From contig CAYOLO010000001.1 in assembly GCA_964404855.1 (NCBI GenBank), positions 94,245-158,244 on the forward strand: DNA of 64,000 nt. Direction: 5' to 3'. This DNA is from an uncultured Gammaproteobacteria bacterium. Lineage in GTDB: Bacteria > Patescibacteriota > Microgenomatia > CAYQLK01. Made by a program: the position numbers and the translations under genes. Position 1 is the first letter of the stretch. Every line of letters starts with the position of its first letter. Under the pieces are notes generated by a model, which was given only the letters and a program-made list of their open reading frames with translations, was not told the DNA's origin and made no database searches. This document shows positions 1 to 23,539 of the stretch, one piece after another.

Positions 1-102
1 TTTACGTTTCAGAATATCCTCGATTACTGTTCGAGTATTGCGAATTTTTGCCATTTCTGTCGGACTTGGTGCACTTGCCCAAATTTTTAATTGGTCTTCC
101 GA
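1..102 (-). CDS. 5' end of a gene truncated by the window edge; product unknown (hsdR candidate by position only)
   Basis: Minus-strand ATG at 102..100, immediately after the hsdS stop. It reads MISEDQLKIWASAPSPTEMAKIRNTRTVIEDILKRK... and stays open to position 1. Confidence 0.3.
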
Positions 103-104
103 AA

Positions 105-1370
105 TCATACTTTTAACATCCTCCTTCCACTTACGAGTTGTGGTATAAGCAAATCTCTAATTTTTCTTAACTTTTCATTTTTTTCAGATAAATTATCCTT
201 AAGCTCAAGAATGTTAATGCACTTGTTTTCAAATTCATCTAACAAGCCCTTGTCGGGAACAAGAATTTTATATTCTGAAATTGCAGCAGGTTTTAAATGT
301 AATACGTTTGCCCCATTTGCTTTATTTTTTGTGGTTTCAGTAAATCTATAATCTAAAAGCGTGTAATAAGTAAAAGCTGGTGGAATTTCCTGTGGAACAA
401 TTTTCACAACGTCTGCAGAGAATGTAATCTTCTGATTTCTGATATTTGGAATTCTTGCTGGTCTAGAAATAACTGCACGATCTGTAGTCATATCAGTAAC
501 AGCGACAACTATATCTCCTCGCTTTAATAACTGCTCTTCTTTTACTGAACCATTAAAATATTTAACTCCATCAAAGCGAAATCCTCCACCTCTATTAAAA
601 CTCTTAAGATTAACTAAATAATAGTTACCATCTTTATCGTTTATTTCCTCTGAAGAGTACGATGTTCCTCTTACAATTTTTGCAACCTCATCTATTCTTT
701 TCTCAACCCATCCTATAGGAACCTTACCCATAGAAGAGTCAATAAATTTAACAGTTTTATATCCAGGGTACTTAAAATTTACAAACCATTCAACGTAAAG
801 TCTTTGAGCGCTTTCTTCGAGAATCTTTATTCTTTTTGTATTGTTTTCAATTAAACTATCATACCTTTCTAGAATGTCTCCTACAGATTGCTGGGTTTTA
901 AAATCAGGAATCAAAATTTGAAAATTTTCAATGTCTGATTTAGTAAGTGCTTCTCTAGTTCCGCCTGTAGCAGAGTATCCCAGTAGACGTTTTTTGATAA
1001 ATGGATTTACTAAAAAGTATTTTAAGTACTTTCTGCTTAGGTTAATTTCATCTGCTCTAATTATTGAAACATGCTGGTTCACTCTCGCGGGCACTAAATC
1101 TTTGGGAACGCTCGTGATTCTGCCGACTGAAGCACCAGTTATATTAAGTAATACATCACCTTCTTCTACAATTACATTCTCAAGTTTTTTTGCTTGAACT
1201 TCATTTATAAAAGCAAGGTCATCGTAATTAAATTCTAGATCGTAAATATTCAGGCTTCTTATTAATGGTATTCCATTTTTAACATATGAGGATTTTCCGC
1301 CTCTTGGAGTAGCCCCGCTTCCTATCTTTGTTGTTATTTCTCTTAATTTATAACTATTCAATTTGCTCAT
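105..1370 (-). CDS. hsdS: Type I restriction-modification specificity subunit HsdS
   Basis: 421 aa with two target-recognition half-repeats. Conserved HsdS-like linker motifs include LIPQLVSGRR. Overlaps hsdM by 4 nt. Confidence 0.85.
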   Translation of the reverse strand: MSKLNSYKLREITTKIGSGATPRGGKSSYVKNGIPLIRSLNIYDLEFNYDDLAFINEVQAKKLENVIVEEGDVLLNITGASVGRITSVPKDLVPARVNQHVSIIRADEINLSRKYLKYFLVNPFIKKRLLGYSATGGTREALTKSDIENFQILIPDFKTQQSVGDILERYDSLIENNTKRIKILEESAQRLYVEWFVNFKYPGYKTVKFIDSSMGKVPIGWVEKRIDEVAKIVRGTSYSSEEINDKDGNYYLVNLKSFNRGGGFRFDGVKYFNGSVKEEQLLKRGDIVVAVTDMTTDRAVISRPARIPNIRNQKITFSADVVKIVPQEIPPAFTYYTLLDYRFTETTKNKANGANVLHLKPAAISEYKILVPDKGLLDEFENKCINILELKDNLSEKNEKLRKIRDLLIPQLVSGRRMLKV

Positions 1371-2941
1371 GATATTTTGTTTAAGTCATCACTAATTTTT
1401 ATTTCTAGTTCATGTGCTTCTTGAGTTAGTGTTTTAAAATCATTAGAAAGCGTCCTAATACGAGCATCGAATTCCACATCATCAATTTCTTTTTCAAGAA
1501 TATCAACATATCTTCCGGGGTTCAGTGAATATTCGTTTTGCTTTACTTCATTTATTGTTATAGTCTTGCAGCGCCCGGGGATATTCTCATACTTTCCTGC
1601 ACCTTCTTCATTTCTAAACCTTCTGACTATCCCCGCTAGCTCTTGGATTTGTTCATCTGTCCATTTGTTGTGTGCGCGATCAACTTGTGTGTAAACGTCT
1701 TGAGCGTTGATGAAAAGAATCTGATTTTGTCTATTTGTGCCTCTTTTCCCCTTATCCAAAAACCATAGTGTTGAAGAAAGCGGAACATTTAGAAACATAT
1801 TGGAAGGTGTAGTAATAATTACATCGACCAGACCTTGATCAATAAGATTTTTTCTAATTTCTTTTTCTGCGTTACCTGCATCCGTGGCACTGTTTGCCAT
1901 GACAAAACCGGCACGACCTTTCCCCGAGAGAGCGCTTGCAAACATCTGAATCCAAAGATAATTTGCATTACTTATCTCTTTCTTACCAGTTAGCGGAAGT
2001 CCCAAAAAATACCGTGGATCTCCTTGAATTCTTGAAGGGTCAATTACAAGTTGTCCTCTAGAATCTCTTCCTTTTACATTGAAAGGTGGATTAGCTAGTA
2101 CAAAATCAAATTTTCCTACACTTTGATAAACGTCTTCATAAAAAGAGTTGGCTGGAGTAATTTTTCCAGATAATCCATGTATAGCGAGGTTCATTTTGGC
2201 AATCTTTACTGTAGAATCGGTCTTCTCTTGTCCGTAGATTGCAACCTCATCCATGACTTGGGTGTGATTTTTCAAATGAGCTTTGACAAAGTTTGCAGAC
2301 TGAACAAACATACCACCACTTCCACAAGCAGGATCGTAAATTCGTCCGTGATATGGTTCGATAATTTCGACAAGCAGTTTAACTATTGATTGAGCAGTGA
2401 AAAACTCCCCTCCATCTTGGCCTTCTGCTTTTGCAAACTCACCTAAAAAGTATTCGTATATTTCACCAAACGCATCACCCTCAATATCATCTGGGATCTG
2501 ATTGAAATTCTTCAAAAGGGTGACGATAATTCTATTGTTTTCATCTGCTCTTGAAGAAAGAGTGGTATAGTTTTGAGGCAGTACTCCTGCGAGGTCACGA
2601 TTCTCTTCTTCGATAGCAGCCATTGCTTCATTTACTGCTTTTCCAAGATTTTCGTTTTCTGGAAGACTGATTAAATATGAGAAGGTAGCTTTTTCAGGAA
2701 CGAAAAGGACGCCACGAGCCTTATAATCATCCGGGGATACAGGACGTTGTCTGCCAGATTGAGATGCGGTTTTGCTTTTTTCTAATTCACCCTGAGCTTT
2801 TTTAAAACGAACGTCAGCAAATTTAAGAAATATAAGACCCAGAATTGGTTCAGAGATTTCATTTAGTTTAAGGCTGCTATTGGCACGCATGTGTTCTGCC
2901 GCTGCCCATAGTTGTCTTTGTAGTTGTTTCTTATCGCTCAT
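1367..2941 (-). CDS. hsdM: Type I restriction-modification N6-adenine DNA methyltransferase HsdM
   Basis: 524 aa. NPPFN catalytic motif (VLANPPFNVKG), an AdoMet-binding region and the HsdM N-terminal domain. Confidence 0.9.
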   Translation of the reverse strand: MSDKKQLQRQLWAAAEHMRANSSLKLNEISEPILGLIFLKFADVRFKKAQGELEKSKTASQSGRQRPVSPDDYKARGVLFVPEKATFSYLISLPENENLGKAVNEAMAAIEEENRDLAGVLPQNYTTLSSRADENNRIIVTLLKNFNQIPDDIEGDAFGEIYEYFLGEFAKAEGQDGGEFFTAQSIVKLLVEIIEPYHGRIYDPACGSGGMFVQSANFVKAHLKNHTQVMDEVAIYGQEKTDSTVKIAKMNLAIHGLSGKITPANSFYEDVYQSVGKFDFVLANPPFNVKGRDSRGQLVIDPSRIQGDPRYFLGLPLTGKKEISNANYLWIQMFASALSGKGRAGFVMANSATDAGNAEKEIRKNLIDQGLVDVIITTPSNMFLNVPLSSTLWFLDKGKRGTNRQNQILFINAQDVYTQVDRAHNKWTDEQIQELAGIVRRFRNEEGAGKYENIPGRCKTITINEVKQNEYSLNPGRYVDILEKEIDDVEFDARIRTLSNDFKTLTQEAHELEIKISDDLNKIS

Positions 2942-2942
2942 A

Positions 2943-3869
2943 TTATTTTTTCTCTAACTTAAAGCTAATCTTGTAAGTGTAAAAATCAATGTTTGGAGCA
3001 ACAACTAAAGCCCTGTGTATTTTGATGTCGTCTTCGAATGCTATGACAACACCTTTTACTTTTTGATTTTCTTCCGCAAGTTCTTCTTGGACATAACCCA
3101 TATATCTTTGAATCTGTCCAATGACTACATCACTCACGCGTCCTTTTTTTAACTCAACGACTAGAATTTCTTTTTTGTCTTTGCTTATGGCAAGGATATC
3201 AATGGGGCCGGTGTCGCTGGGGTATTGTTGACCGACAATTTCACCGTCTTCTTCATAAATATCATAGTTTTTTCCAAGTTCCGTATGGTGCCAATTCTGT
3301 ACCAGGAAGTCTTCAAGATGCTTTTCAAGCGCGAATATACTTGGATCTTCTATAGTTTCATCTGTAGATATAATTGAGGCCGGATGACTACCGGATATTA
3401 ATCCTTCAATCTCTTCTGCATATTTAGAGATATTGCTTACCGTTCCGATACTTCCTGCGGAGTTTCTTAAGGATTCACCAACTTCATCTCGTGAGATGGT
3501 TCTTGCATACCATCGAACATTTCGTCTGTGAGGTAAGTTTGCGCCTTTGTGATACTCATAGCCACCTGTGACTTCTCCAACCAAGTAACTACCTTGGCCG
3601 TCAGGGCAAAGTATAATATCTCCTACTAGAATCCCTTTTGCGATTGTATGAAGCATTCCACAAGCAAGTCCGGCAGATACTTTAGTCTTTTCTGGATTGT
3701 GTTCTAAGTAAATGGGAATGTATTTTTGATTAAATTCGCGCCAATTATCGGGTAATTCGTTTGTGAGGTCTACTTCGGGGAGCCATCCTGCACCAATATA
3801 GTTACCAACGTGCGCTTCTTTTGCGTAAGCACTCCTTCTGCCTAGCATTATACGATAGTAATTCTTCAT
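2943..3869 (-). CDS. Nuclease with C-terminal NucS/DUF91-like PD-(D/E)XK domain and an uncharacterised N-terminal domain
   Basis: 308 aa. C-terminus GPIDILAISKDKKEILVVELKKGRVSDVVIGQIQRYMGY matches the NucS/EndoMS catalytic-core pattern (D...E.K...Q..RY). Lies 1 nt upstream of hsdM. Confidence 0.5.
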   Translation of the reverse strand: MKNYYRIMLGRRSAYAKEAHVGNYIGAGWLPEVDLTNELPDNWREFNQKYIPIYLEHNPEKTKVSAGLACGMLHTIAKGILVGDIILCPDGQGSYLVGEVTGGYEYHKGANLPHRRNVRWYARTISRDEVGESLRNSAGSIGTVSNISKYAEEIEGLISGSHPASIISTDETIEDPSIFALEKHLEDFLVQNWHHTELGKNYDIYEEDGEIVGQQYPSDTGPIDILAISKDKKEILVVELKKGRVSDVVIGQIQRYMGYVQEELAEENQKVKGVVIAFEDDIKIHRALVVAPNIDFYTYKISFKLEKK

Positions 3870-3870
3870 T

Positions 3871-4602
3871 TTATTTTTCTACTTCCTTCGATTCTATTCT
3901 ATAAATACAGTGTTCACAGGTGGGGTCGGAGTCGGGAAGTGTGTTGGATTCGAGACAGTCACGGGCTTTGAGAAGGGCGTCTTCTACCCAACTAGCATCT
4001 CCAGTGTAAGGGAAAATCTCGACGTCAAATTCTAGTTTGCCATCGAAGGCTTTACGGTCTGTTCTTCCGTTTGCATAAACGAAATATCCAGTATTACTAA
4101 CATCGAATCCGCTGGAACGAAGAAGCCATTGATAGATTTCTATTTGTCTTTTGTAACCATCCTTATATGGACCATCCATGTCGATGCCTTTTTCCGAGGC
4201 GGTGCTTTTGTAATCAACGACATGAAGTTGATTGTCTGGTGTAACCCAGATGTCATCAATTGCTCCAGTGACGATAAAATTGCTGAGTGGATGATGGACT
4301 TGGATGCCTTGAAAGTTCTCACGCCAAATATCCATTTTGGGATGCTGGAATGGAACTGCATTTATTTTGTAATGTTCCATTAATGGATGGGCGGTGCCGT
4401 TGGCGCGGTGGACATCAAATTCTTTTTTGAATAATGTATCGACTGCGGAGTTGAGATTAAAAGAAGGCATCGAAGGTCGACCGACACCGAGACGGCGGTC
4501 GAGATAAAAACATCTTGGACATCTAGTAAAATCTTCAAGTTTGGAACGACTTAGTTTGAATGGGACTTTTGGGTCGGGGTTGAAGATGTTGCGTTGACGC
4601 AT
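3871..4602 (-). CDS. Cas4/RecB-family PD-(D/E)XK nuclease with a 4-Cys cluster
   Basis: 243 aa. N-terminal CPRCFY and C-terminal CEHCIY cysteine pairs flank a VVDYKST...EIYQW core, giving a Cas4-like architecture. No cas genes or CRISPR array nearby. Confidence 0.55.
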   Translation of the reverse strand: MRQRNIFNPDPKVPFKLSRSKLEDFTRCPRCFYLDRRLGVGRPSMPSFNLNSAVDTLFKKEFDVHRANGTAHPLMEHYKINAVPFQHPKMDIWRENFQGIQVHHPLSNFIVTGAIDDIWVTPDNQLHVVDYKSTASEKGIDMDGPYKDGYKRQIEIYQWLLRSSGFDVSNTGYFVYANGRTDRKAFDGKLEFDVEIFPYTGDASWVEDALLKARDCLESNTLPDSDPTCEHCIYRIESKEVEK

Positions 4603-4661
4603 TGGTATATTTTGAATTCGTGTATTTTAGCTTATTGAGGCAAGTAATGGGAGGATTTGTT

Positions 4662-4833
4662 AAATATTATGGATTTTATTAGTTTTTTACATTACATTCT
4701 TTTTTCAATATGTTTTCTTGGCACACCAAAAATCCCAGCGTGATTTTTGTTTTTCACTTTTTCTTCGTTCTTTTGCTTAAAGACAAAAACCATGCCCACT
4801 CAGAAAAAGAGATCCAAGAAAACATATTGAGGG
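4662..4833. repeat. Structured intergenic repeat element, copy A (5' module, hairpin module variant 1 and 3' attgagg module)
   Basis: Shares ttcttggcacaccaaaaatcccagcgtgatttttgtttttcactttttc...ccatgcccac...aaaaagagatccaagaaa...attgaggg with copies B, E and D. Contains nested inverted repeats. Confidence 0.8.
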
Positions 4834-4880
4834 AGTATGAAGTTAAGGGGCTAATAAACAGTTAGAATACGTAGATACTA

Positions 4881-5336
4881 TTAATTTTGTTGAAGTTTTT
4901 TTAATTTTTTATAATCAATTTGTTCTACCTCTCCATGTTCGTTTACAAAAAATAAATATAGATTTAATTTATCGCACACATCGTATGGAATTCGCCTGAT
5001 TGCCATTTCTTTAAAAGAAATGGGGTATCCAACCCCGTACTTGTATCCATATTTATATCCCCTTACTCCAGTTCTTTTCATTCGAGTAATTATTTGACCT
5101 AACGCAAGATTAAAATGAACCTCGCGATGAGATGATGGAAATTTTGCTCTTGTACTAGCATCACCCTTACATTCAATTAAAAAGTACCTTGAGACCTTAT
5201 TGTTTTTTACTTTTATATCAACGCCGTGCTGTTTAAGTGTTTTTGATTGAAGATTTTTGCTCCACCCTGATTTTGATAAAAATTCAATTATCTTTTCTTG
5301 AATAAAGTCCTCGGGTATTAATATTTGTTTATTCAC
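4881..5336 (-). CDS. Hypothetical protein, possible small PD-(D/E)XK-fold protein
   Basis: 151 aa. GVDIKV...YFLIECKGD resembles a D-x(n)-E-x-K nuclease core. Lies 20 nt downstream of dnaJ on the same strand. Confidence 0.4.
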   Translation of the reverse strand: MNKQILIPEDFIQEKIIEFLSKSGWSKNLQSKTLKQHGVDIKVKNNKVSRYFLIECKGDASTRAKFPSSHREVHFNLALGQIITRMKRTGVRGYKYGYKYGVGYPISFKEMAIRRIPYDVCDKLNLYLFFVNEHGEVEQIDYKKLKKLQQN

Positions 5337-5355: not shown

Positions 5356-6225
5356 TTAAAACCAACTTTTCTTTTTGCCGGCTTCTTGGAATTGTTTGAG
5401 TAAATCTTTTTGTTTGGAGTTAAGAGTTTTGGGAACTGTGATGGTAATTATGATGTAATGATCCCCTTTGGTTTTGGTGTTAATTTTTGTCACACCTTTG
5501 CCAGCAAGTCTTATTTTGCTATCTGGTTGAGTACCAGCTGGGACTTTGACTTTTACCATTCCATCGATTGTTTCTACTTCGATGACATCACCGAGAGCGG
5601 CTTGAGTAAAATCTATTTTGGCTTCGGTATAAATATCATGACCGCGACGAGCGAATTTGCTAGAAGCAGATACCTGACAAACAATTGCAAAATCTTTAAA
5701 ACGAATCGTAGTGCCGTCGTCAACACCAGCTGGGATTTTGACTTTTTGGCGTTTGCCGTTTATCTCGAACTCTTTGGTGACACCATGAACTGCTTCGTCA
5801 AAAGAAATATGCAGACCGTATTGTGGCATGCGCTGTCTGGAACCAAATGGAGATTGACCGCCGAACATCATGTCAAAAATATCAAAAGCATCTTCAAAAC
5901 CACCAAACCCTTGATTGCCTTGTGTGCTTGACCATTGATAATTAAACCCGCCTGGGTTGCCTGCACCACCTGGTCGGCCGCCACCAAAACCTGCATTTTG
6001 GTCAAAAGCAGAGTGGCCGTACTGATCGTAAGCTGCTCTTTTGTCCTTGTCAGATAAAATTTGATAGGCTTCGTTAACTTCTTTAAAACGACTTTCGGCA
6101 CCTGCGGTTTTGTCGACGTCAGGATGAGATTTGCGGGCTTTGGCCCTGTAAGCTTTTTTTATATCATCATCTGAGGCGTTTTTTGAAACGCCTAGAGTTT
6201 CATATGGATCTTTTTTGGTACTCAT
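5356..6225 (-). CDS. dnaJ: J-domain co-chaperone, DnaJ/CbpA-like, lacking the Cys-rich zinc-finger region
   Basis: 289 aa. J domain with HPD (KSHPDVDK), a Gly/Phe-rich linker and a DnaJ C-terminal substrate-binding region. No CxxCxGxG repeats. Confidence 0.8.
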
Positions 6226-6240
6226 GGTCTTTATTTAATT

Positions 6241-6482
6241 TAATATATTATTTTTCCAATTTACTTTTCTTGCACGTTCAAAATCCCAGCGAGATTTTGC
6301 ACTTTCACTTTTTGCTCGCTCTTTTGCGAACGCAAAATCCGTGCCCGCTTGCAAAAAGAGATCAAGAAAAATAAATCGGCGGGTAGATTTGGAAAAAAAC
6401 AAAAGGCGTCCACAGTAAAATATTGGGCTAGTTAGTTTGCTTATCAGCAAACGGGAGAGATCCACTAAAGAAAATTGAGAGA
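6241..6482. repeat. Structured intergenic repeat element, copy B (variant 1 core plus a partial variant 2 fragment)
   Basis: Core caaaatcccagcgagattttgcactttcactttttgctcgctcttttgcgaacgcaaaatccgtgcccgcttgcaaaaagagatcaagaaa, then caaaaggcgtccacagtaaaatattggg and gagatccactaaagaaaattgagag. Confidence 0.8.
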
Positions 6483-6520
6483 TAGGAGATTGGAATGAGA
6501 AAAATGGGAGATGCATGGGG

Positions 6521-7129
6521 TTATTTTTTGAATTTTTGACTTACACGAGGTTGTTTGTCTTCGCGAAAGTGGCGAGGACTTCTATCAGAAGGATGTTGAT
6601 AATATTGTCCAAAGACTCCAGGAGTTTTTTCTACGATATCGATTTCGCTTGTGTCGGTGAAAAATAATTCTATTGGAAATTCTTCCGGATCTTTGCCATC
6701 AAGATCAACCTCGCCAGATAATTGTCTTGCGATAGTTCTTTTACGTTTATCACCAAAAATTTCTTCCTCAGATCTAACGGCCTCACCCTGCATTTTGGCA
6801 ATTGGCAAAGCAGGAATAGATTTGTCTGGTCTTGGCATGGTAGGTTTGGGTTCGGCGGGCCTGGGTCTTGGGCGGCGGTCGATAACTAAATCTCGAGAAG
6901 ATCCTATTTTGGGTGCTTGTTTTGACTCTTCCCAAAGTTCGATTGCTAAGAAATATGTTTCAACCAGCCAACCACGATAACGACGATTGCCTTCGTCCTT
7001 AGCTTTTTGCGCATCACGCCTTAAAGCTTCTAGTCCTCGATGTGAAGATTGATATTGCTGAGCAACAACTAGTGCGGCTTGGCGTTTGTTTTGTTCTAAT
7101 TCTGATAATTCTGGATTTTCAAGTGACAT
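6521..7129 (-). CDS. Hypothetical protein (Pro/Arg-rich central region) embedded in the heat-shock operon
   Basis: 202-aa ORF between dnaK and dnaJ on the same strand. No recognisable motif. Confidence 0.5.
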   Translation of the reverse strand: MSLENPELSELEQNKRQAALVVAQQYQSSHRGLEALRRDAQKAKDEGNRRYRGWLVETYFLAIELWEESKQAPKIGSSRDLVIDRRPRPRPAEPKPTMPRPDKSIPALPIAKMQGEAVRSEEEIFGDKRKRTIARQLSGEVDLDGKDPEEFPIELFFTDTSEIDIVEKTPGVFGQYYQHPSDRSPRHFREDKQPRVSQKFKK

Positions 7130-7157
7130 TGTTTGATTTAATTAAATATTTTATAGG

Positions 7158-7176
7158 TTTTCTCCATATGGAGAAA
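7158..7176. promoter_or_regulatory. Perfect 16-bp palindrome TTCTCCATATGGAGAA, about 30 bp upstream of the start codon of the 202-aa gene
   Basis: tttctccatatggagaaa is read directly from the sequence. The homologous position in copy F is a hairpin with a different loop (ttctctaacgagaa). Confidence 0.5.
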
Positions 7177-7181
7177 CAGAG

Positions 7182-7319
7182 TTTTTTTAATCACACTTTT
7201 CACTTCAGCTCTTTGGACTGGTGTCGTCGAGCACCTTGTTTTGCCGTCGCAAAACAAAAGGCGTTCAAAGTGTGATTGGAAGTAAAGGAAACAAAATGCG
7301 TTCATAACGAAATTGAGAG
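7182..7319. repeat. Structured intergenic repeat element, copy C (variant 2 hairpin module, no 5' module)
   Basis: A 130-nt stretch nearly identical to 16381..16480. The outer 11-bp inverted repeat is AATCACACTTT...AAAGTGTGATT. The inner hairpin is ttttgccgtcgcaaaa. Confidence 0.85.
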
Positions 7320-7367
7320 TGATGACAAAAATGTCGGAGATAGTTTTTGGAAGAATTTGGCGAGTAA

Positions 7368-7703
7368 CTATTTCCTTTCTTTTTCTTGGTCTTCTGGATG
7401 TTTGGCTCTAATTGCAGCGACGGCCTCTCGTCGCATCCTAAGAATATTGAAGTTAATTATTCGTCCACGCTCGTCTTTGAAAGGAAGATTAGAAGCAGGA
7501 AGCGGAGATTCAGGAACGTTGACACCAGAAAGAGCTTCTTTGTGGTTGAGACGAGTAAGCGCTTCGGATATTTGGCCTTGAGTATAACCATCAGCACTGC
7601 CAGCTGGACTATCATCGGCTTTGTCCCAAAGAGCTTCTAGCTCTTCACGAGTTTTGGATTCTAGCCCAGTTGGTTTGGGTTGTGCTTCTGGCGTAAATGC
7701 CAT
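7368..7703 (-). CDS. Hypothetical protein directly downstream of dnaK
   Basis: 111-aa ORF, 10 nt after the dnaK stop on the same strand. Its GC content is higher than that of its neighbours. Confidence 0.5.
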   Translation of the reverse strand: MAFTPEAQPKPTGLESKTREELEALWDKADDSPAGSADGYTQGQISEALTRLNHKEALSGVNVPESPLPASNLPFKDERGRIINFNILRMRREAVAAIRAKHPEDQEKERK

Positions 7704-7713
7704 TTTTATTTTT

Positions 7714-9621
7714 TTACTTTTTTTCTTCTACGACTTCACCTTCTTGAGTCTCGCCTTCGGCGGTAGGCTCTTCGGATGGTTTTTCTTCTGATTCAGAGGC
7801 TTGGTCATTTGAAGCTTGTGGGCCTTCGGCTTGGTCATACATTGCCTGACCTACTTTTTGAGTCGAGGTACTAAGCTCATCGGTAGCTTTTTTGATGGTA
7901 TCGATATCATCAGCCTCGAGAGCTTCTTTAGCTAGTTTGACCTTTTCTTCAACCTCGGTTTTGACCTCGGCACTAACCTTGTCGCCAGCATCTTTGAGAG
8001 CTTTTTCGCTCTGGTAGATTAAGCTTTCGGCATTGTTGCGAACCTCAATGAGCTCTTTTTTCTTGTCATCTTCGGCCTTGTGAGCTTCGGCTTCTTTCAT
8101 CTTGGTTTCGACTTCTTCTTTACTTAGTGAAGTAGAACCTGTGATGGTAATCTTCTGCTCTTTGCCTGTAGCTTTGTCTTTGGCTGAGACAGCAAGGATT
8201 CCATTAGCGTCAATGTCGAATGTAACTTCGACTTGTGGAACACCGCGAGGTGCGGTTGGAATTCCATCAAGAATAAATCTTCCTAAACTCTTGTTGTCGG
8301 TAGCCATTTCGCGCTCACCTTGTAGGACGTTAATCTCTACAGAGGTTTGGTTGTCGGCCGCAGTTGAGAAAATCTGCGACTTGGAAGTCGGGATCGTACT
8401 GTTGCGGTCGATAAGCGGAGTGCGAACACCACCTAGGGTTTCGAGACCTAGGGTAAGCGGTGTGACATCAAGGAGAAGAATGTCTTTGACGTCTCCAGAT
8501 AGAACAGCTCCTTGGATAGCCGCGCCGATGGCGACAACTTCGTCAGGATTAATACCTTTGTTAGGATCTTTGCCAAAGAATTCTTTGACCTTCTCCTGAA
8601 CTTTTGGCATTCTGGTCATTCCACCTACGAGGATAACTTCGTCGATTGCCGTTGCTTCGACACCAGCATCTTTAAGGGTGTTTTTGACTGGAGTTAGGGT
8701 TTTTTCGATTAAATCTGTAACTAGCTCTTCGAGTTTTGCCCTACTTAGTTTGGTCTGCATGTGCTTAGGTCCAGAGTTGTCGGCCGTAAGATACGGAAGA
8801 CTTATTTCGGACTCTGTTGCACTAGATAGTTCGATTTTGGCTTTTTCGGCTGCGTCGCGAATTCGCTGCATTGCTGCTTTGTCGCCTGAGATATCAACAC
8901 CTTCGGTATTTTTGTACTCAGTTACAAGATGGTCGATGATAACTTGGTCAAAGTCGTCGCCTCCGAGGTGAGTGTCACCGCCGGTTGCTTTAACTTCGAA
9001 AACTCCATCGCCTAGCTCTAGAACAGAGACGTCGAATGTTCCACCACCAAGGTCGTAGACTACGATAGTGTGAGCATTTTTCTTGTCTAGCCCGTAAGCC
9101 AGAGCGGCTGCGGTTGGCTCGTTGATAATACGTTTGACATCAAGACCTGCGATTTCGCCTGCTTGTTTGGTAGCCTGACGCTGTGCATCGTCGAAGTATG
9201 CAGGAACAGTAATAACTGCTTCTTTGACATCTTCGCCTAGATAGCTCTCGGCATCTTTTTTGAGTTTGGCTAAGATCATTGCTGAGATTTCTTGTGGGGT
9301 ATAGGTTTTGCCGTCGACTTTGACGTCAGCAGAACCGTTTTTGCCCTCGACAACTTCGTAAGGAATCCACTTGAGTAGACTCTGAACTTCTTTGTCTTTT
9401 AATTTACGCCCCATTAGACGCTTAACACTGAAAATCGTGTTTTTTGAATTGACGACGATTTGGCGTTTGGCCACATCTCCGACAATGTTTTTGGTTGGAT
9501 CAACAACTGAAGGTACAGTATTACGACCTTCGGCTGAGTGGATAACTTTTGGTTCTCCACCTTCCATTACTGAAACAACCGAGTTGGTTGTACCTAGATC
9601 AATTCCTATTATTTTTGACAT
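7714..9621 (-). CDS. dnaK: Molecular chaperone DnaK (Hsp70)
   Basis: 635 aa. N-terminal [18 protein letters not shown] and the other conserved Hsp70 signatures, plus an acidic C-terminal tail. Confidence 0.97.
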
Positions 9622-21462: not shown

Positions 21463-21729
21463 TCAGACAAGATTATCTGAAAGAAATTTGTCGAATTTGT
21501 CTGGAGTGGTTGCTCCTAAATGACGAGCAACTTCTACATCATCTTTTAAAATAATGTAGGTTGGGATTGAAGCGACATTATATTTAATGGAGTCATCGGG
21601 GGTTTCGTCGACGTTTATTTCTACGAATTCTATCTTCCCATCGTATTTTTTCTTCATATCTTCAATAATAGGATGCATCAGTTTGCATGGGCCACACCAC
21701 TCTGCCCAGAAATCAAGGAGTTTAATCAT
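21463..21729 (-). CDS. trxA: Thioredoxin
   Basis: 88 aa with the WCGPC active site. Confidence 0.9.
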   Translation of the reverse strand: MIKLLDFWAEWCGPCKLMHPIIEDMKKKYDGKIEFVEINVDETPDDSIKYNVASIPTYIILKDDVEVARHLGATTPDKFDKFLSDNLV

Positions 21730-21757
21730 ATTTTTAAAAAACTTAGAATACTTTTAT

Positions 21758-23539
21758 ATGGATAATAAGGAAATTTTAGCAGGTCTAAATACAGCACAAC
21801 AAGAAGCGGTTGAAAAAACTGATGGTCCAGTGCTGGTTTTGGCGGGAGCTGGGAGCGGAAAAACTAAGGTTTTGACTCAGAAGCTTTGTTATATTTTGGC
21901 CAACCAACTTGCCTATCCTTCAGAAATATTAATGGTGACATTTACCAATAAGGCGGCAGCGGAAATGAAGGAAAGAGTTGTTAAGCTGTTGGGAGAAAAT
22001 TCTGATTTGCCTTTTATGGGAACATTCCATTCTTATGGTGCGAGATTTTTGAGAATTGAGGGTCAACACCTAGGGCTTTCTTCAAATTTTGTGATTTATG
22101 ATGAAAAAGATAGTGTCGATTTAATAGGTACAGTGATGGAAGAGTTGAATATTGGCACCAAAACTACCAAACCTCAGGCGGTCAAATACAACATTAGCAG
22201 TGCAAAAAACGAAATGGTTTCGGCTAAAGAATATTTGGGATATGCCAAAGGTTATTTTCAGGAAACGGTCGCAAAAGTTTATTTGGGATATGAACAAAAA
22301 ATGCAGGAAGTGAATGCGGTTGATTTTGATGATTTACTTAAAAAAGTAGTTGACCTATTAAAAACAAATTCCGAACTAAAAGAAAAATATTCCAACAGAT
22401 ATAAATATGTTTTGGTTGATGAGTATCAAGACGTTAATGCGGCACAATATCAATTAACAAAAATACTATCTAGTAAACATGGAAATATCACTGTTGTTGG
22501 GGATGCATCTCAGGCGATTTATGCTTTTCGGGGAGCTGATTTTCGAAATATCGTTAATTTTGAAAAAGATTTTAAGGATGTAGAAGTTATTAACTTGGAG
22601 GAAAATTATAGATCAACAAACACGATTTTATCTGCAGCTAATACTGTAATTTCGCAAAACAGAAGCCATCCAGTGTTAAAGCTTTGGACAAAAAATGGAC
22701 AAGGAGAATTAATTAGACTTATTCAAGCACCAGACGAACAAGCAGAGGGAAATATTATTGCTTCGGTAATTATTAATTCTGGAAGAGATTTTGATGACTT
22801 TGCAATCCTCTATCGTACAAATGCTCAATCTCGCTCAATTGAAGAGTCATTAATAAAAAGTGGTGTGCCATATAACCTTGTTGGTGGGGTTAGGTTTTAT
22901 GACAGAAAAGAGATAAAAGATGTGTTGGCATACATGCGAATGATTGCCAATGAAAAAGATTTGGTAGCAAGGGAAAGAGTTATGAAATTGGGTAAACGAA
23001 AATATCAGCAATTTATTTTAAGAGTTGGCGAAATAAATAAAGAGCATCCGCCATCAGAAATATTGTCATCAGTACTAGAGATAAGTAATTATCTATCAAG
23101 GTTTGATGAAAAAGACCCTGAAGAAGCAGGGAGAGTTGAAAATATTCGGGAGCTTTCTTCGGTGGCTGAGAAGTTTGATAACTTGGATGAATTTTTGGAA
23201 AATGTTGCGCTTATGGAATCAGGGTCTGACTTAAGAAAGAACGGTGAGCACACTTCTGAAGTGACTTTGATGACGATTCATTCAGCTAAAGGATTGGAAT
23301 TCCCTGTGGTTTTTATGACCGGCATGGAAGAAGGTTTGTTCCCCCATTCTAGGTCTCTTATTGACCCAGCACAGCTCGAGGAAGAAAGAAGACTTTGCTA
23401 TGTTGGAATGACGAGGGCAAAAGAAGTATTGTTTTTGACTTACACCTCTAATCGACTATATTTTGGCGTCAGAGGAAGTAGTATTCCGTCACGATTTTTG
23501 GGTGATTTGCCGGAAGAATTGGTTAAAAATTTGTCGTAG
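21758..23539 (+). CDS. pcrA: ATP-dependent DNA helicase, UvrD/PcrA family
   Basis: Start placed at MDNKEILAGLNTAQQEAV, because the upstream ORF extension overlaps trxA and was rejected. Walker A is AGAGSGKT. The DEYQD and TIHSAKGLEF helicase motifs are present. Confidence 0.9.
   Translation: MDNKEILAGLNTAQQEAVEKTDGPVLVLAGAGSGKTKVLTQKLCYILANQLAYPSEILMVTFTNKAAAEMKERVVKLLGENSDLPFMGTFHSYGARFLRIEGQHLGLSSNFVIYDEKDSVDLIGTVMEELNIGTKTTKPQAVKYNISSAKNEMVSAKEYLGYAKGYFQETVAKVYLGYEQKMQEVNAVDFDDLLKKVVDLLKTNSELKEKYSNRYKYVLVDEYQDVNAAQYQLTKILSSKHGNITVVGDASQAIYAFRGADFRNIVNFEKDFKDVEVINLEENYRSTNTILSAANTVISQNRSHPVLKLWTKNGQGELIRLIQAPDEQAEGNIIASVIINSGRDFDDFAILYRTNAQSRSIEESLIKSGVPYNLVGGVRFYDRKEIKDVLAYMRMIANEKDLVARERVMKLGKRKYQQFILRVGEINKEHPPSEILSSVLEISNYLSRFDEKDPEEAGRVENIRELSSVAEKFDNLDEFLENVALMESGSDLRKNGEHTSEVTLMTIHSAKGLEFPVVFMTGMEEGLFPHSRSLIDPAQLEEERRLCYVGMTRAKEVLFLTYTSNRLYFGVRGSSIPSRFLGDLPEELVKNLS

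What the first reader, a model, noticed from the sequence alone, without database searches (positions are those of the whole stretch)
1..4602. Type I R-M module with two extra nucleases co-transcribed and no recognisable hsdR in view
On the minus strand the gene order is Cas4-like nuclease (3871-4602), NucS/DUF91-like nuclease (2943-3869), hsdM, hsdS, then an unknown gene truncated at the window start. Spacings are 1 to 4 nt, so the genes are probably translationally coupled. No SF2-helicase HsdR lies upstream within this window. The only candidate is the truncated downstream gene, whose 34 visible residues show no HsdR hallmark. This is either a conventional M-S-(R) locus with accessory defence nucleases, or a variant in which stand-alone PD-(D/E)XK nucleases supply the restriction function.
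Basis: partly seen in the sequence, partly recalled or inferred. Interest (0 to 1): 0.6.

Follow-up and report, generated by a model that had tools for sequence, protein, structure and literature searches.

The report
Type I restriction operon carrying guest defence genes
This is an ordinary type I restriction-modification operon that has picked up extra, probably independent defence genes (two nucleases and the start of a CBASS-type cyclase); its missing restriction subunit most likely lies just past the window edge, so this is a known kind of arrangement rather than a new kind of restriction system.

Summary
On the minus strand, five tightly packed genes run Cas4-like nuclease, NucS-like nuclease, hsdM, hsdS, then a 36-residue stub. 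No hsdR lies anywhere in the 64 kb.

The interpretation needs correcting.
- The NucS-like gene is a full-length member of PADLOC candidate family PDC-S02 (E = 1e-159). That family was defined by being embedded in type I R-M, BREX or DISARM loci.
- The stub is not HsdR. It matches the N-terminus of CBASS-type oligonucleotide cyclases, so it is a further guest gene.
- In this hsdM lineage, 45 of 48 informative loci carry hsdR downstream. All eight informative loci with HsdM 82-89% identical read hsdM-hsdS-[variable guest(s)]-hsdR. hsdR is therefore most likely a few kb beyond position 1.
- Neither nuclease is specific to this R-M system. PDC-S02 often occurs without type I genes. The Cas4-like gene abuts a different defence system in nearly every locus (Gabija, Ppl, HerA, SMODS-SLATT, type III-like).

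The idea that the stand-alone nucleases replace HsdR is not supported. This is a new member of a known kind (defence genes embedded in R-M operons).

Two modest by-products emerged. PDC-S02 has a confidently modelled, poorly described N-terminal domain. The Cas4-like gene behaves as a boundary marker of variable defence islands.

The parts
4603..4880 (-). 278-nt AT-rich gap upstream of the Cas4-like gene; presumed promoter region of the operon (inferred)
   Evidence: GC 0.31 in 4501-5000. It is the only sizeable non-coding gap between ORF151 and the window edge. No consensus promoter was found on the minus strand, so the assignment is inference.
3871..4602 (-). Cas4-like / RecB-family PD-(D/E)XK nuclease (243 aa) with four invariant cysteines; not CRISPR-associated here
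   Evidence: PDDEXK_1 1.1e-13. PADLOC Cas4 models 1e-8 to 2e-5. TIGR00372 scores 27 bits against a cut-off of 65. Invariant residues are C28, C31, D116, D130, K132, Q153, Y157, C229 and C232. No CRISPR array in the window. Homologues abut a different defence gene in each locus.
2943..3869 (-). PDC-S02 candidate defence nuclease (308 aa): N-terminal domain (about residues 1-160) absent from the local Pfam copy, plus a C-terminal NucS-type PD-(D/E)XK nuclease (about residues 180-300)
   Evidence: PADLOC PDLC04799 1.3e-159, covering 1-307 of 308 positions. NucS_C 6.6e-8 at residues 200-278. PDB profile hit to NucS 2vld, E = 6e-4. Invariant D224, E239, K241, Q252 and Y256 in 31 and in 121 homologues. 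AlphaFold2 model pLDDT 82. Foldseek top hits NucS/EndoMS, then MspJI and YTH domains.
1367..2941 (-). hsdM, type I DNA methyltransferase subunit (524 aa)
   Evidence: N6_Mtase 1.1e-83 and HsdM_N 8.8e-20. PADLOC MTase_I 5.6e-185. Homologues at 82-89% identity lie in hsdM-hsdS-guest-hsdR operons.
105..1370 (-). hsdS, type I specificity subunit (421 aa, two target-recognition halves)
   Evidence: Methylase_S 3.1e-21 in two stretches. PADLOC Specificity_I 1.6e-90 over residues 4-416. Its start overlaps the hsdM stop by 4 nt.
1..108 (-). First 36 codons of a guest gene, most likely a CBASS-type oligonucleotide cyclase (CD-NTase-like); cut by the window edge
   Evidence: Its ATG overlaps the hsdS stop (ATGA). 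The stub hits PADLOC Cyclase PDLC00801 at E = 1e-4, residues 2-35 aligned to profile positions 4-37 of 295. An exhaustive phmmer search found P0121 (63% identity, E = 4e-6) and P0122. P0121 continues into a GS...DxD nucleotidyltransferase motif and scores 7e-21 against PADLOC Cyclase. There is no similarity to the lineage's HsdR N-terminus.

Best explanation
Window 1-4602 is the upstream four-fifths of a composite defence operon built on a conventional type I restriction-modification system.

Shown:
- hsdM and hsdS are intact and tightly coupled.
- The gene in front of hsdM is a full-length member of the PADLOC candidate family PDC-S02, with an intact PD-(D/E)XK site (D224, E239-x-K241, Q252...Y256).
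- The first gene is a RecB/Cas4-type nuclease with an intact active site.
- The gene after hsdS begins like a CBASS oligonucleotide cyclase.

Inferred from relatives:
- hsdR (about 1040 aa, starting MNQFSEDNLVEQT...) lies beyond window position 1, after the cyclase and probably its effector. This hsdM lineage habitually carries one or more variable guest genes in the hsdS-hsdR slot.

Likely working:
- HsdM2-HsdS1 methylates the host's bipartite target. With HsdR it translocates and cuts unmethylated incoming DNA.
- The guests are self-contained modules that share the operon's transcription and horizontal transfer, not its chemistry.
- PDC-S02 is most likely an autonomous DNA endonuclease. Its N-terminal domain senses a feature of foreign DNA, possibly a modified base, and so covers phages that escape type I restriction. 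This follows the TgvAB and BrxU precedents.
- The cyclase would signal infection to an effector (abortive infection).
- The Cas4-like gene is most likely the conserved boundary gene of a defence-cargo hotspot, or a generic accessory exonuclease. It is not a partner of this R-M system.
For: PDC-S02 identity: PADLOC 1.3e-159 over the full length.

PDC-S02 linkage in the 78 of 80 genome loci that could be centred on the gene:
- 15 are embedded between hsdM/S and hsdR.
- 3 have the window's order, PDC-hsdM-hsdS-hsdR-YgjP (L011, L032, L073).
- 2 sit after hsdR.
- 9 have hsdM/S only and 3 have hsdR only, mostly on contigs that end nearby.
- 46 show no type I genes. This slightly over-counts, because in at least L040 the ORF caller picked an antisense ORF. 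At least 24 of the 46 have 5 kb or more on both sides.

hsdR in the window's hsdM lineage: 45 of 48 loci with at least 3 kb after hsdS have hsdR on the same strand. In 21 it follows directly and in 23 after a 0.6-3.9 kb insert; one locus has no measurable hsdS-hsdR gap.

Closest relatives (82-89% HsdM identity) are all hsdM-hsdS-guest-hsdR, with different guests: SDH_protease, SduA_C (plus Fic), DUF3644 and an AAA_15/21 ATPase.

The guest in L179 starts with the same ATGA overlap on the hsdS stop as the window's stub.

Stub is a cyclase. Stub is not HsdR.

Literature:
- Embedding of defence genes in type I R-M, BREX and DISARM; the PDC set; embedded genes share the host system's orientation in 96.7% of cases (bioRxiv 10.1101/2024.01.29.577857).
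- TgvAB, a type IV system embedded in a type I operon, acts independently of HsdR (PMC11411939).

Sensor plus nuclease architecture of PDC-S02: AlphaFold2 pLDDT 82, with the N-domain at 85-94. Foldseek hits NucS/EndoMS at 3e-7, MspJI at 1e-3 and YTH domains at about 0.06-0.16.
Against: - The DNA beyond position 1 could not be retrieved, so hsdR, the rest of the cyclase and any effector are inferred, not seen.
- 3 of 48 related loci lack a downstream hsdR.
- The stub assignment rests on 36 residues. E = 1e-4 and 4e-6 are significant but modest.
- PDC-S02 has no demonstrated function. One homologue gave no protection against T4, T5 or T7 in E. coli B (bioRxiv 10.1101/2024.09.26.614923).
- The modified-base-reader idea rests on weak fold matches; only the PDB and viral fold libraries were available.
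- The window copy of PDC-S02 sits in front of hsdM, not strictly between R-M genes.
- Co-transcription is inferred from spacing only.
Confidence: 0.72

Rival explanations
1. R-less variant: the locus has no HsdR at all, and one or both stand-alone PD-(D/E)XK nucleases are recruited by the HsdM-HsdS complex to cut unmethylated DNA.
For: No hsdR in 64 kb. The nucleases are tightly spaced with hsdM/hsdS. 3 of 48 related loci lack a downstream hsdR.
Against: PDC-S02 in other genomes sits in operons that do have hsdR: 20 loci with both hsdM/S and hsdR against 9 with hsdM/S only, and most of those 9 are on contigs that end nearby. None of 86 loci of this hsdM lineage carries PDC-S02 and only one carries the Cas4-like gene, yet nearly all have hsdR. 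All eight informative loci with HsdM 82-89% identical have a 1041-aa hsdR or an ORF cut by the contig end that is 80-91% identical to it. Both nucleases occur with unrelated systems or alone.
Confidence: 0.04
2. Orphan methyltransferase: hsdR has been lost from this genome. hsdM-hsdS acts only as a methylase (epigenetic or anti-restriction role), and the flanking nucleases and cyclase are unrelated island cargo.
For: hsdR is not visible. A minority of related loci (3 of 48) show no downstream hsdR. The apparent host is a small-genome Patescibacteria-type organism; closest homologues come from Patescibacteria and the matching HsdM sits on a 660-kb contig.
Against: Same lineage statistics as above: 45 of 48 loci have hsdR, including every close relative that could be checked. 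HsdR is 89-91% conserved among those relatives, which argues for purifying selection on the complete system.
Confidence: 0.1
3. Guard model: PDC-S02 is not autonomous but is functionally tied to the type I enzyme, like PrrC with EcoprrI. It is held inactive by the R-M complex and released when a phage anti-restriction protein disables it.
For: About 40% of PDC-S02 loci lie in or next to type I operons, always on the same strand and usually directly between hsdS and hsdR. The PrrC precedent is cited in 10.1101/2024.01.29.577857. It would explain the negative result when a homologue was tested alone.
Against: At least 24 well-flanked loci have no type I genes nearby, and others sit beside N6_N4 methyltransferases. 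The host HsdM families differ: about 800-aa HsdM in most loci against the 524-aa family here, at 22-30% identity. That argues against a specific protein-protein interface.
Confidence: 0.12
4. The Cas4-like gene is a true functional accessory of restriction systems, for example an exonuclease that degrades restriction fragments or processes DNA ends. On this reading it is not just a neighbour.
For: In 12 of 12 contexts with homologues of at least 53% identity, it lies in or at the edge of a defence island. In 10 of the 11 contexts other than the window, it directly abuts a same-strand gene within 0-15 nt. The active site and the four cysteines are invariant.
Against: The abutting system differs almost every time: Gabija, Ppl, HerA, SLATT, DUF3644, PDC-S18, PDC-S02 and a type III-like Res. 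There is no consistent partner. Pairs such as L170/L171 and L183/L187 keep the Cas4-like gene and the far-side genes while the cassette is swapped, which is the pattern of a hotspot anchor gene. The genome also encodes an AddA-like helicase-nuclease.
Confidence: 0.2

Closest known systems
PADLOC phage-defence candidate PDC-S02 (Payne, Hughes, Fineran and Jackson, 'guilt-by-embedding', bioRxiv 10.1101/2024.01.29.577857)
   Same: Full-length HMM match (1.3e-159, 307 of 308 positions). Single-gene module on the same strand as a type I R-M operon. Homologues are embedded between hsdS and hsdR in many phyla.
   Different: Here it sits in front of hsdM rather than between R-M genes; 3 of 80 loci share that order. 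The family itself has no demonstrated activity.
Type I R-M operons with embedded second systems: EcoprrI-PrrC, V. cholerae VPI-2 T1RM-TgvAB (PMC11411939), BREX-BrxU
   Same: A complete methylase/specificity core with foreign defence genes nested in the same orientation and tightly spaced. Complementary or back-up defence is the favoured rationale.
   Different: The guests differ: PDC-S02, a cyclase and a Cas4-like gene rather than an anticodon nuclease or a GmrSD-like enzyme. At least three guests occupy one operon. hsdR is not visible in this window.
NucS / EndoMS mismatch endonuclease (PDB 2vld, 5gke)
   Same: The C-terminal PD-(D/E)XK domain is homologous (Pfam NucS_C 6.6e-8; PDB profile 6e-4; Foldseek 3e-7). 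Both are two-domain proteins.
   Different: It scores far below the NucS equivalog cut-offs (40 bits against 216). The N-terminal domain has no sequence similarity to NucS. The family is horizontally scattered in defence loci, unlike a repair gene.
Modification-dependent (type IV) restriction enzymes with a PUA-superfamily reader plus PD-(D/E)XK nuclease, e.g. MspJI (PDB 4f0q); screen in PMC6765204
   Same: Sensor domain plus PD-(D/E)XK nuclease in a single polypeptide with no methyltransferase of its own. MspJI is a Foldseek hit over both domains (E = 1.2e-3), and YTH readers are weaker hits.
   Different: Reader identity is unproven. There is no sequence-level match to EVE, ASCH, SRA or YTH. 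Modification dependence has not been tested.
Cas4 / AddB-type RecB-family nucleases with a cysteine cluster
   Same: D...D-x-K...Q-x3-Y motifs and four conserved cysteines flanking the nuclease core. PDDEXK_1 and weak Cas4 model hits.
   Different: No cas genes or CRISPR array nearby. Below the Cas4 equivalog cut-off. The cysteines are arranged 2+2 (CxxC...CxxC), whereas from my own knowledge Cas4/AddB use 1+3. Its context is variable defence islands.
CBASS oligonucleotide cyclases (CD-NTases)
   Same: The stub aligns to the extreme N-terminus of PADLOC Cyclase profiles. Its homologue P0121 carries the GS...DxD motif and also sits next to an R-M pair.
   Different: Only 36 residues are visible. 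The catalytic motif, effector gene and CBASS type are all unseen.

Membership tests
Type I restriction-modification system | HsdM with N6-adenine methyltransferase domain and HsdM_N | tested here: met
   N6_Mtase 1.1e-83 and HsdM_N 8.8e-20; PADLOC MTase_I 5.6e-185
Type I restriction-modification system | HsdS with two target-recognition domains, adjacent to hsdM | tested here: met
   Methylase_S in two stretches, 421 aa; Specificity_I 1.6e-90 over residues 4-416; 4-nt overlap with hsdM
Type I restriction-modification system | HsdR (HSDR_N nuclease plus SF2 translocase) encoded with hsdM/S | tested here: inconclusive
   Absent from the 64-kb window. Present downstream in 45 of 48 loci of the same hsdM lineage and in every close relative that could be checked. 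The relevant DNA lies outside the window and could not be fetched.
PADLOC PDC-S02 | Full-length match to a PDC-S02 profile | tested here: met
   PDLC04799 1.3e-159 (1-307 of 308) and PDLC04824 5e-156
PADLOC PDC-S02 | Found embedded in type I R-M, BREX or DISARM loci (the criterion by which PDCs were defined) | tested here: met
   Family level: 15 or more loci between hsdM/S and hsdR, 3 in front of hsdM, 2 after hsdR. The window copy is in front of hsdM.
PADLOC PDC-S02 | Anti-phage activity | not testable with these tools
   Only a candidate family. One homologue gave no protection against T4, T5 or T7 in E. coli B (10.1101/2024.09.26.614923).
NucS / EndoMS | Score above the NucS equivalog cut-off over the whole protein | tested here: not met
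   NF003270 scores 39.9 bits against a cut-off of 216; NF002876 scores 25.2 against 252; only residues 198-280 match
NucS / EndoMS | NucS-type N-terminal dimerisation/DNA-binding domain | tested here: inconclusive
   No sequence match in any of 31 members or in the PDB profile search. Foldseek aligns 213-246 columns of NucS/EndoMS, but with rmsd 13-19 A.
Cas4 (CRISPR-associated) | RecB-type nuclease motifs and a cysteine cluster | tested here: met
   Invariant D116, D130-x-K132 and Q153...Y157; C28, C31, C229 and C232
Cas4 (CRISPR-associated) | Score above the TIGR00372 cut-off | tested here: not met
   27.1 bits against a cut-off of 65
Cas4 (CRISPR-associated) | Linked to cas1/cas2 or a CRISPR array | tested here: not met
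   No repeat array in the window. Its neighbours are PDC-S02 and ORF151. No cas genes were identified among the annotated neighbours of its homologues.
CBASS (CD-NTase cyclase plus effector) | Cyclase with Pol-beta-type GS...DxD catalytic motif | not testable with these tools
   Only residues 1-36 are in the window. They match the cyclase N-terminus. The homologue P0121 has the motif.
CBASS (CD-NTase cyclase plus effector) | Adjacent effector gene | not testable with these tools
   It would lie beyond window position 1.
Type IV / modification-dependent restriction endonuclease | Modified-base reader domain (PUA superfamily or equivalent) fused to a nuclease | tested here: inconclusive
   Nuclease domain is met. 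The N-domain is confidently modelled (pLDDT 85-94), but matches to MspJI (1.2e-3) and YTH (0.06-0.16) are weak. There is no Pfam hit in the local copy.

The most novel reading that the evidence does not exclude
The Cas4-like nuclease family is not an incidental neighbour. It is a dedicated component of variable defence islands in Patescibacteria-type genomes and their mobile elements. Either it is the conserved anchor at which defence cassettes are exchanged (a cargo hotspot whose junction falls within 0-15 nt of its start codon), or it is a generic end-processing nuclease co-expressed with whatever restriction or abortive-infection system is installed. Neither role is recorded for this family in PADLOC, where only weak Cas4 hits appear.
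Probability: 0.25. Interest if true: 0.55.

Novelty: new member of a known kind. Interest (0 to 1): 0.33.

Why it matters
As an R-M variant it does not matter much. The evidence points to a standard type I system whose operon has collected guest defence genes, a phenomenon already described and already used to predict new systems.

Its value is as a clean example and a source of testable candidates:
- A well-conserved but uncharacterised single-gene nuclease, PDC-S02. Its N-terminal domain models confidently and may be a new DNA-feature sensor.
- An hsdS-hsdR slot that holds a different guest in almost every close relative. This gives a natural panel for studying how embedding arises.
- A Cas4-like gene that marks the edge of defence islands in small-genome bacteria, where defence repertoires are poorly known.

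Tried and rejected
- Exact-sequence look-ups of hsdS, PDC-S02 and the 100%-identical HsdM (P0001, on a 660,813-bp NCBI contig) returned no retrievable contig. The region beyond position 1 could therefore not be read.
- The word-indexed search with the stub failed twice: too short at 36 aa, and no candidates when padded with X. The exhaustive representative search then worked.
- Stub as HsdR N-terminus: rejected.
- Single-sequence AlphaFold2 of PDC-S02 was unusable (pLDDT 36). The MSA-based model was used instead.
- Sequence identification of the PDC-S02 N-domain failed. No Pfam hit in 31 members at E up to 1, and no PDB sequence hit outside the nuclease domain.
- The 'END nucleases' paper was checked as a possible description of this family. 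It concerns a different family, PLD nuclease plus inactive EndoIII.
- A specific Cas4-like plus NucS-like gene pair was considered, because L081 has PDC-S18 next to a Cas4-like gene. It was rejected as a rule once ten further contexts showed other neighbours.
- The promoter/terminator scan gave nothing informative.
- No tRNA, Rfam or CRISPR features help to define island borders.


Full report
**1. Observation**

On the minus strand the genes are:
- a 243-aa protein (4602-3871);
- a 308-aa protein (3869-2943);
- hsdM (2941-1367, 524 aa);
- hsdS (1370-105, 421 aa);
- an ORF that starts at 108 and runs off the window.

The junctions are two 1-nt gaps and two 4-nt ATGA overlaps. The stub has 36 visible residues, not 34, and its frame is the only open one at the edge.

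Pfam confirms the domain calls: PDDEXK_1 (1.1e-13), NucS_C (6.6e-8, residues 200-278), N6_Mtase plus HsdM_N (1e-83 and 9e-20), and Methylase_S in two stretches (3e-21).

No hsdR-like gene exists anywhere in the 64 kb. tblastn with five diverse HsdR proteins gives a best E of 0.5. The ten large ORFs scanned are housekeeping genes, a DUF4012 protein, one ORF with no Pfam match, or SF1 UvrD-type helicases. Promoter and terminator scans show nothing above chance inside the operon, so co-transcription remains an inference from spacing.

**2. The 'NucS-like' gene is a known candidate defence family**

Against PADLOC-DB the 308-aa protein matches PDC-S02 over its full length (PDLC04799, E = 1.3e-159, 307 of 308 positions).

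PDC systems were defined by Payne et al. as genes found embedded in BREX, DISARM and type I R-M loci. They are untested candidates (bioRxiv 10.1101/2024.01.29.577857). One PDC-S02 representative gave no protection against T4, T5 or T7 in E. coli B (10.1101/2024.09.26.614923).

The family is very well conserved (55-83% identity) across Patescibacteria, Bacteroidota, Planctomycetota, Chloroflexota, proteobacterial groups and archaea. That is the signature of a horizontally mobile module.

**3. Linkage of PDC-S02**

I called genes in the 80 genome loci and clustered the neighbours. The recurrent neighbours were confirmed by Pfam. They are hsdM/hsdS, an HsdR of about 1020 aa (HSDR_N, SWI2_SNF2/ResIII, T1R_D3-like) and a YgjP-like metallopeptidase.

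| Arrangement (78 loci that could be centred) | Loci |
|---|---|
| PDC-S02 between hsdM/S and hsdR | 15 (at least one more hidden by an antisense ORF call) |
| Window's order, PDC-hsdM-hsdS-hsdR(-YgjP): L011, L032, L073 | 3 |
| PDC-S02 after hsdR | 2 |
| hsdM/S only (mostly on contigs that end nearby) | 9 |
| hsdR only | 3 |
| No type I genes detected | 46 (24 with at least 5 kb on both sides) |

Where hsdM/S are present and the contig has room, hsdR is almost always present, sometimes from a different HsdR family. Some loci place PDC-S02 beside N6_N4 methyltransferases instead.

PDC-S02 is therefore a self-contained single-gene module that frequently, but not always, lodges in type I operons that keep their hsdR.

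**4. Where is hsdR?**

The window's HsdM belongs to a different family from the roughly 800-aa HsdM found beside PDC-S02 in most other loci (22-30% identity). So I examined its own lineage.

- A 100%-identical HsdM exists on a 660,813-bp NCBI contig, but its DNA could not be retrieved.
- All eight informative loci with HsdM 82-89% identical read hsdM-hsdS-[guest(s)]-hsdR.
- The guests differ from locus to locus:
  - a 60-aa ORF plus an SDH_protease;
  - SduA_C, with Fic between hsdM and hsdS;
  - DUF3644, in two different lineages;
  - an AAA_15/21 ATPase.
- Across 86 loci of the lineage, 48 have at least 3 kb after hsdS. Of those, 45 carry hsdR on the same strand: 21 directly (35-125 nt), 23 after a 0.6-3.9 kb insert, and one with no measurable hsdS-hsdR gap.
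- HsdR in the close relatives is 89-91% identical, with a nearly invariant N-terminus MNQFSEDNLVEQT(A/V)IKLIK... The stub bears no resemblance to it.
- In L179 the guest starts with the same ATGA overlap on the hsdS stop as in the window.

The best-supported inference is that the window ends inside a guest gene and hsdR follows a few kb further on.

**5. What the stub is**

- The word-indexed search could not use 36 residues.
- An exhaustive phmmer search of 1.84 billion representatives found two significant relatives, P0121 (63% identity, E = 4e-6) and P0122 (E = 1e-4).
- P0121 continues into ...YLQGSYANSTNVKFDSDVDIVV..., the G-S...D-x-D signature of Pol-beta-fold nucleotidyltransferases. It scores 7e-21 against PADLOC's CBASS 'Cyclase' models from profile position 3, and 9.5e-5 against Pfam NTP_transf_2.
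- The stub alone scores E = 1e-4 against Cyclase PDLC00801, with residues 2-35 on profile positions 4-37 of 295.
- P0121 sits directly after a HindIII-like endonuclease and an N6_N4 methyltransferase. P0122 is followed about 190 nt downstream by an IS1595 transposase gene.

The gene after hsdS is therefore most likely a CBASS-type cyclase, a third guest, and not HsdR.

**6. The Cas4-like gene**

It carries a complete RecB-family signature. Invariant residues are D116, D130-x-K132 and Q153...Y157, plus four invariant cysteines arranged C28-x2-C31 ... C229-x2-C232.

It scores below the Cas4 equivalog cut-off (27 bits against 65). It has no solved-structure relative by sequence. There is no CRISPR array in the window.

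It is not linked to the window's hsdM lineage: only 1 of 86 loci, L081, has it. It lies within about 1-6 kb of PDC-S02 in only three of the 80 PDC-S02 loci, at 53-55% identity.

In all 12 distinct contexts with homologues of at least 53% identity, it lies at the edge of a defence island. Usually it sits 0-15 nt from a same-strand gene, and that neighbour is different almost every time:

| Locus | Genes abutting the Cas4-like gene |
|---|---|
| Window | PDC-S02 (downstream) |
| L081 | PDC-S18, after a type I operon |
| L170 | SLATT_4, after SMODS-AGS_C, after type I hsdM-hsdS-hsdR |
| L171 | DUF3644, after ResIII, two methyltransferases and NOV_C |
| L169 | type III-like Mod/Res upstream; PIF1-type helicase downstream |
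| L182 | unknown 407-aa gene, after an SNF2 helicase and a C5 methyltransferase |
| L183/L184 | Ppl-like, after a type IIG enzyme |
| L186 | Ppl-like |
| L185 | HerA |
| L187 | GajB, after GajA, after type I hsdR |
| L001 | unknown 168- and 212-aa genes, then PDC-S02 and a PDC-S02 paralogue |
| L027 | about 6 kb from PDC-S02 and a frameshifted hsdR |

L170/L171 (Cas4-like genes 92% identical) and L183/L187 keep the Cas4-like gene and some downstream genes (L183/L187 by inspection of N-termini) while the cassette is swapped. That is the pattern of an anchor gene at a defence-cargo hotspot. A generic accessory role cannot be excluded.

**7. Mechanism of PDC-S02**

Shown:
- The C-terminal domain is a NucS-type PD-(D/E)XK nuclease (Pfam; PDB profile hit to 2vld at 6e-4).
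- D224, E239, K241, Q252 and Y256 are invariant in 31 diverse and 121 close homologues. All are intact in the window copy.

Tried on the N-terminal domain (about residues 1-160):
- It has no Pfam match in the local copy in any of 31 members.
- The precomputed annotations assign a newer family, PF28530.
- The MSA-based AlphaFold2 model is confident (pLDDT 82, pTM 0.76; N-domain 85-94). It shows a mixed alpha/beta domain with long paired strands.
- Foldseek against the PDB ranks NucS/EndoMS first (3e-7, about 215-245 aligned columns). Next come the modification-dependent enzyme MspJI (1.2e-3, both domains) and, more weakly, YTH m6A readers (0.06-0.16).

Inferred:
- PDC-S02 is a sensor-plus-nuclease enzyme acting on DNA. 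The sensor may read a modified or otherwise aberrant base.
- That would make it complementary to type I restriction, as shown for TgvAB within a type I operon (PMC11411939) and for BrxU within BREX. It also fits the modular logic of modification-dependent nucleases (PMC12191111; PMC6765204).
- This step is a hypothesis. I put it at roughly one in three.

**8. Comparison, novelty and verdict**

The locus works like, and is best filed as, a conventional type I R-M operon with embedded or appended guest defence genes. That phenomenon is documented. The central 'extra nuclease' already has a PADLOC family.

The R-less alternative is not, at about 4%, and it survives only because the downstream DNA is unseen. 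An orphan hsdMS methylase with hsdR lost is a second minor possibility (about 10%).

- **Novelty:** new member of a known kind.
- **Interest:** low to moderate (0.33). It rests on three by-products: a confidently modelled but poorly characterised sensor domain in PDC-S02, the highly variable hsdS-hsdR guest slot in this lineage, and the Cas4-like gene as a marker of defence-island boundaries in small-genome bacteria.

Noticed in passing
window 3871-4602; loci L081, L169-L171, L182-L187, L001, L027: The Cas4-like gene is a recurrent boundary gene of hypervariable defence islands. In 12 contexts the gene abutting it (mostly 0-15 nt, same strand) belongs to a different system almost every time: PDC-S02, PDC-S18, SMODS-SLATT, DUF3644, type III-like Res, Ppl (two loci), HerA and Gabija. 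The gene and its far-side neighbours stay conserved within groups.
   Followed up: partly
window 4881-5336 (minus strand): A 151-aa ORF lies just upstream of the operon, across the 278-nt gap. It has a weak NOV_C (restriction-endonuclease-like) hit at E = 8.8e-4, below the cut-off, and a D...ExK-like motif (GVDIKV...YFLIECKG). A full NOV_C protein sits in the equivalent cassette of L171. It may be a further island gene.
   Followed up: partly
loci L081-L086, L174, L179-L181: In the window's hsdM lineage the hsdS-hsdR slot holds a different guest in almost every close relative (SDH_protease, SduA_C, DUF3644, AAA_15/21 ATPase, and here a cyclase). Meanwhile HsdM (82-89% identity to the window's) and HsdR (78-91% identity to the L081 reference) stay conserved. 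This looks like a very active insertion or exchange site.
   Followed up: partly
window 2943-3869, residues 1-160 of the product: The N-terminal domain of PDC-S02 has no match in the local Pfam copy but is labelled PF28530 in the precomputed annotations. It models at pLDDT 85-94. Its identity could not be looked up.
   Followed up: partly
L001 10001-12140: Tandem PDC-S02 and a 379-aa paralogue (37-44% identity), preceded by two unknown genes and the Cas4-like gene.
   Followed up: no
window 25766-28651 and 21587-23539: An AddA-like helicase-nuclease (UvrD-helicase, UvrD_C, PDDEXK_1; 961 aa) has no ORF of 450 aa or more directly adjacent that could be AddB. A second UvrD-type helicase (650 aa) lies nearby.
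   Followed up: no
window 5356-9621: dnaK and a 289-aa dnaJ-like gene are separated by two unannotated ORFs: 111 aa at 7368-7703 and 202 aa at 6521-7129. The 202-aa ORF has no Pfam hit. No grpE was recognised between them.
   Followed up: no
window 1-64000: No tRNA gene, no Rfam family at gathering threshold and no CRISPR-like array in the whole 64 kb.
   Followed up: yes
P0001 (HsdM) versus the other window proteins: The HsdM sequence is in the protein collection at 100% identity, on a 660,813-bp NCBI contig. The window's hsdS and PDC-S02 products are not found by exact look-up, and the best PDC-S02 relative is 95% identical. Either the record is only partly indexed, or hsdM is shared between strains that differ in the flanking genes.
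   Followed up: partly
L167/L168 and L173: The stub's only detectable relatives are fragments. One is a 98-aa ORF directly after a HindIII-like endonuclease and methyltransferase pair. The other is an 89-aa ORF followed about 190 nt downstream by an IS1595 transposase gene. This cyclase subfamily appears rare.
   Followed up: partly
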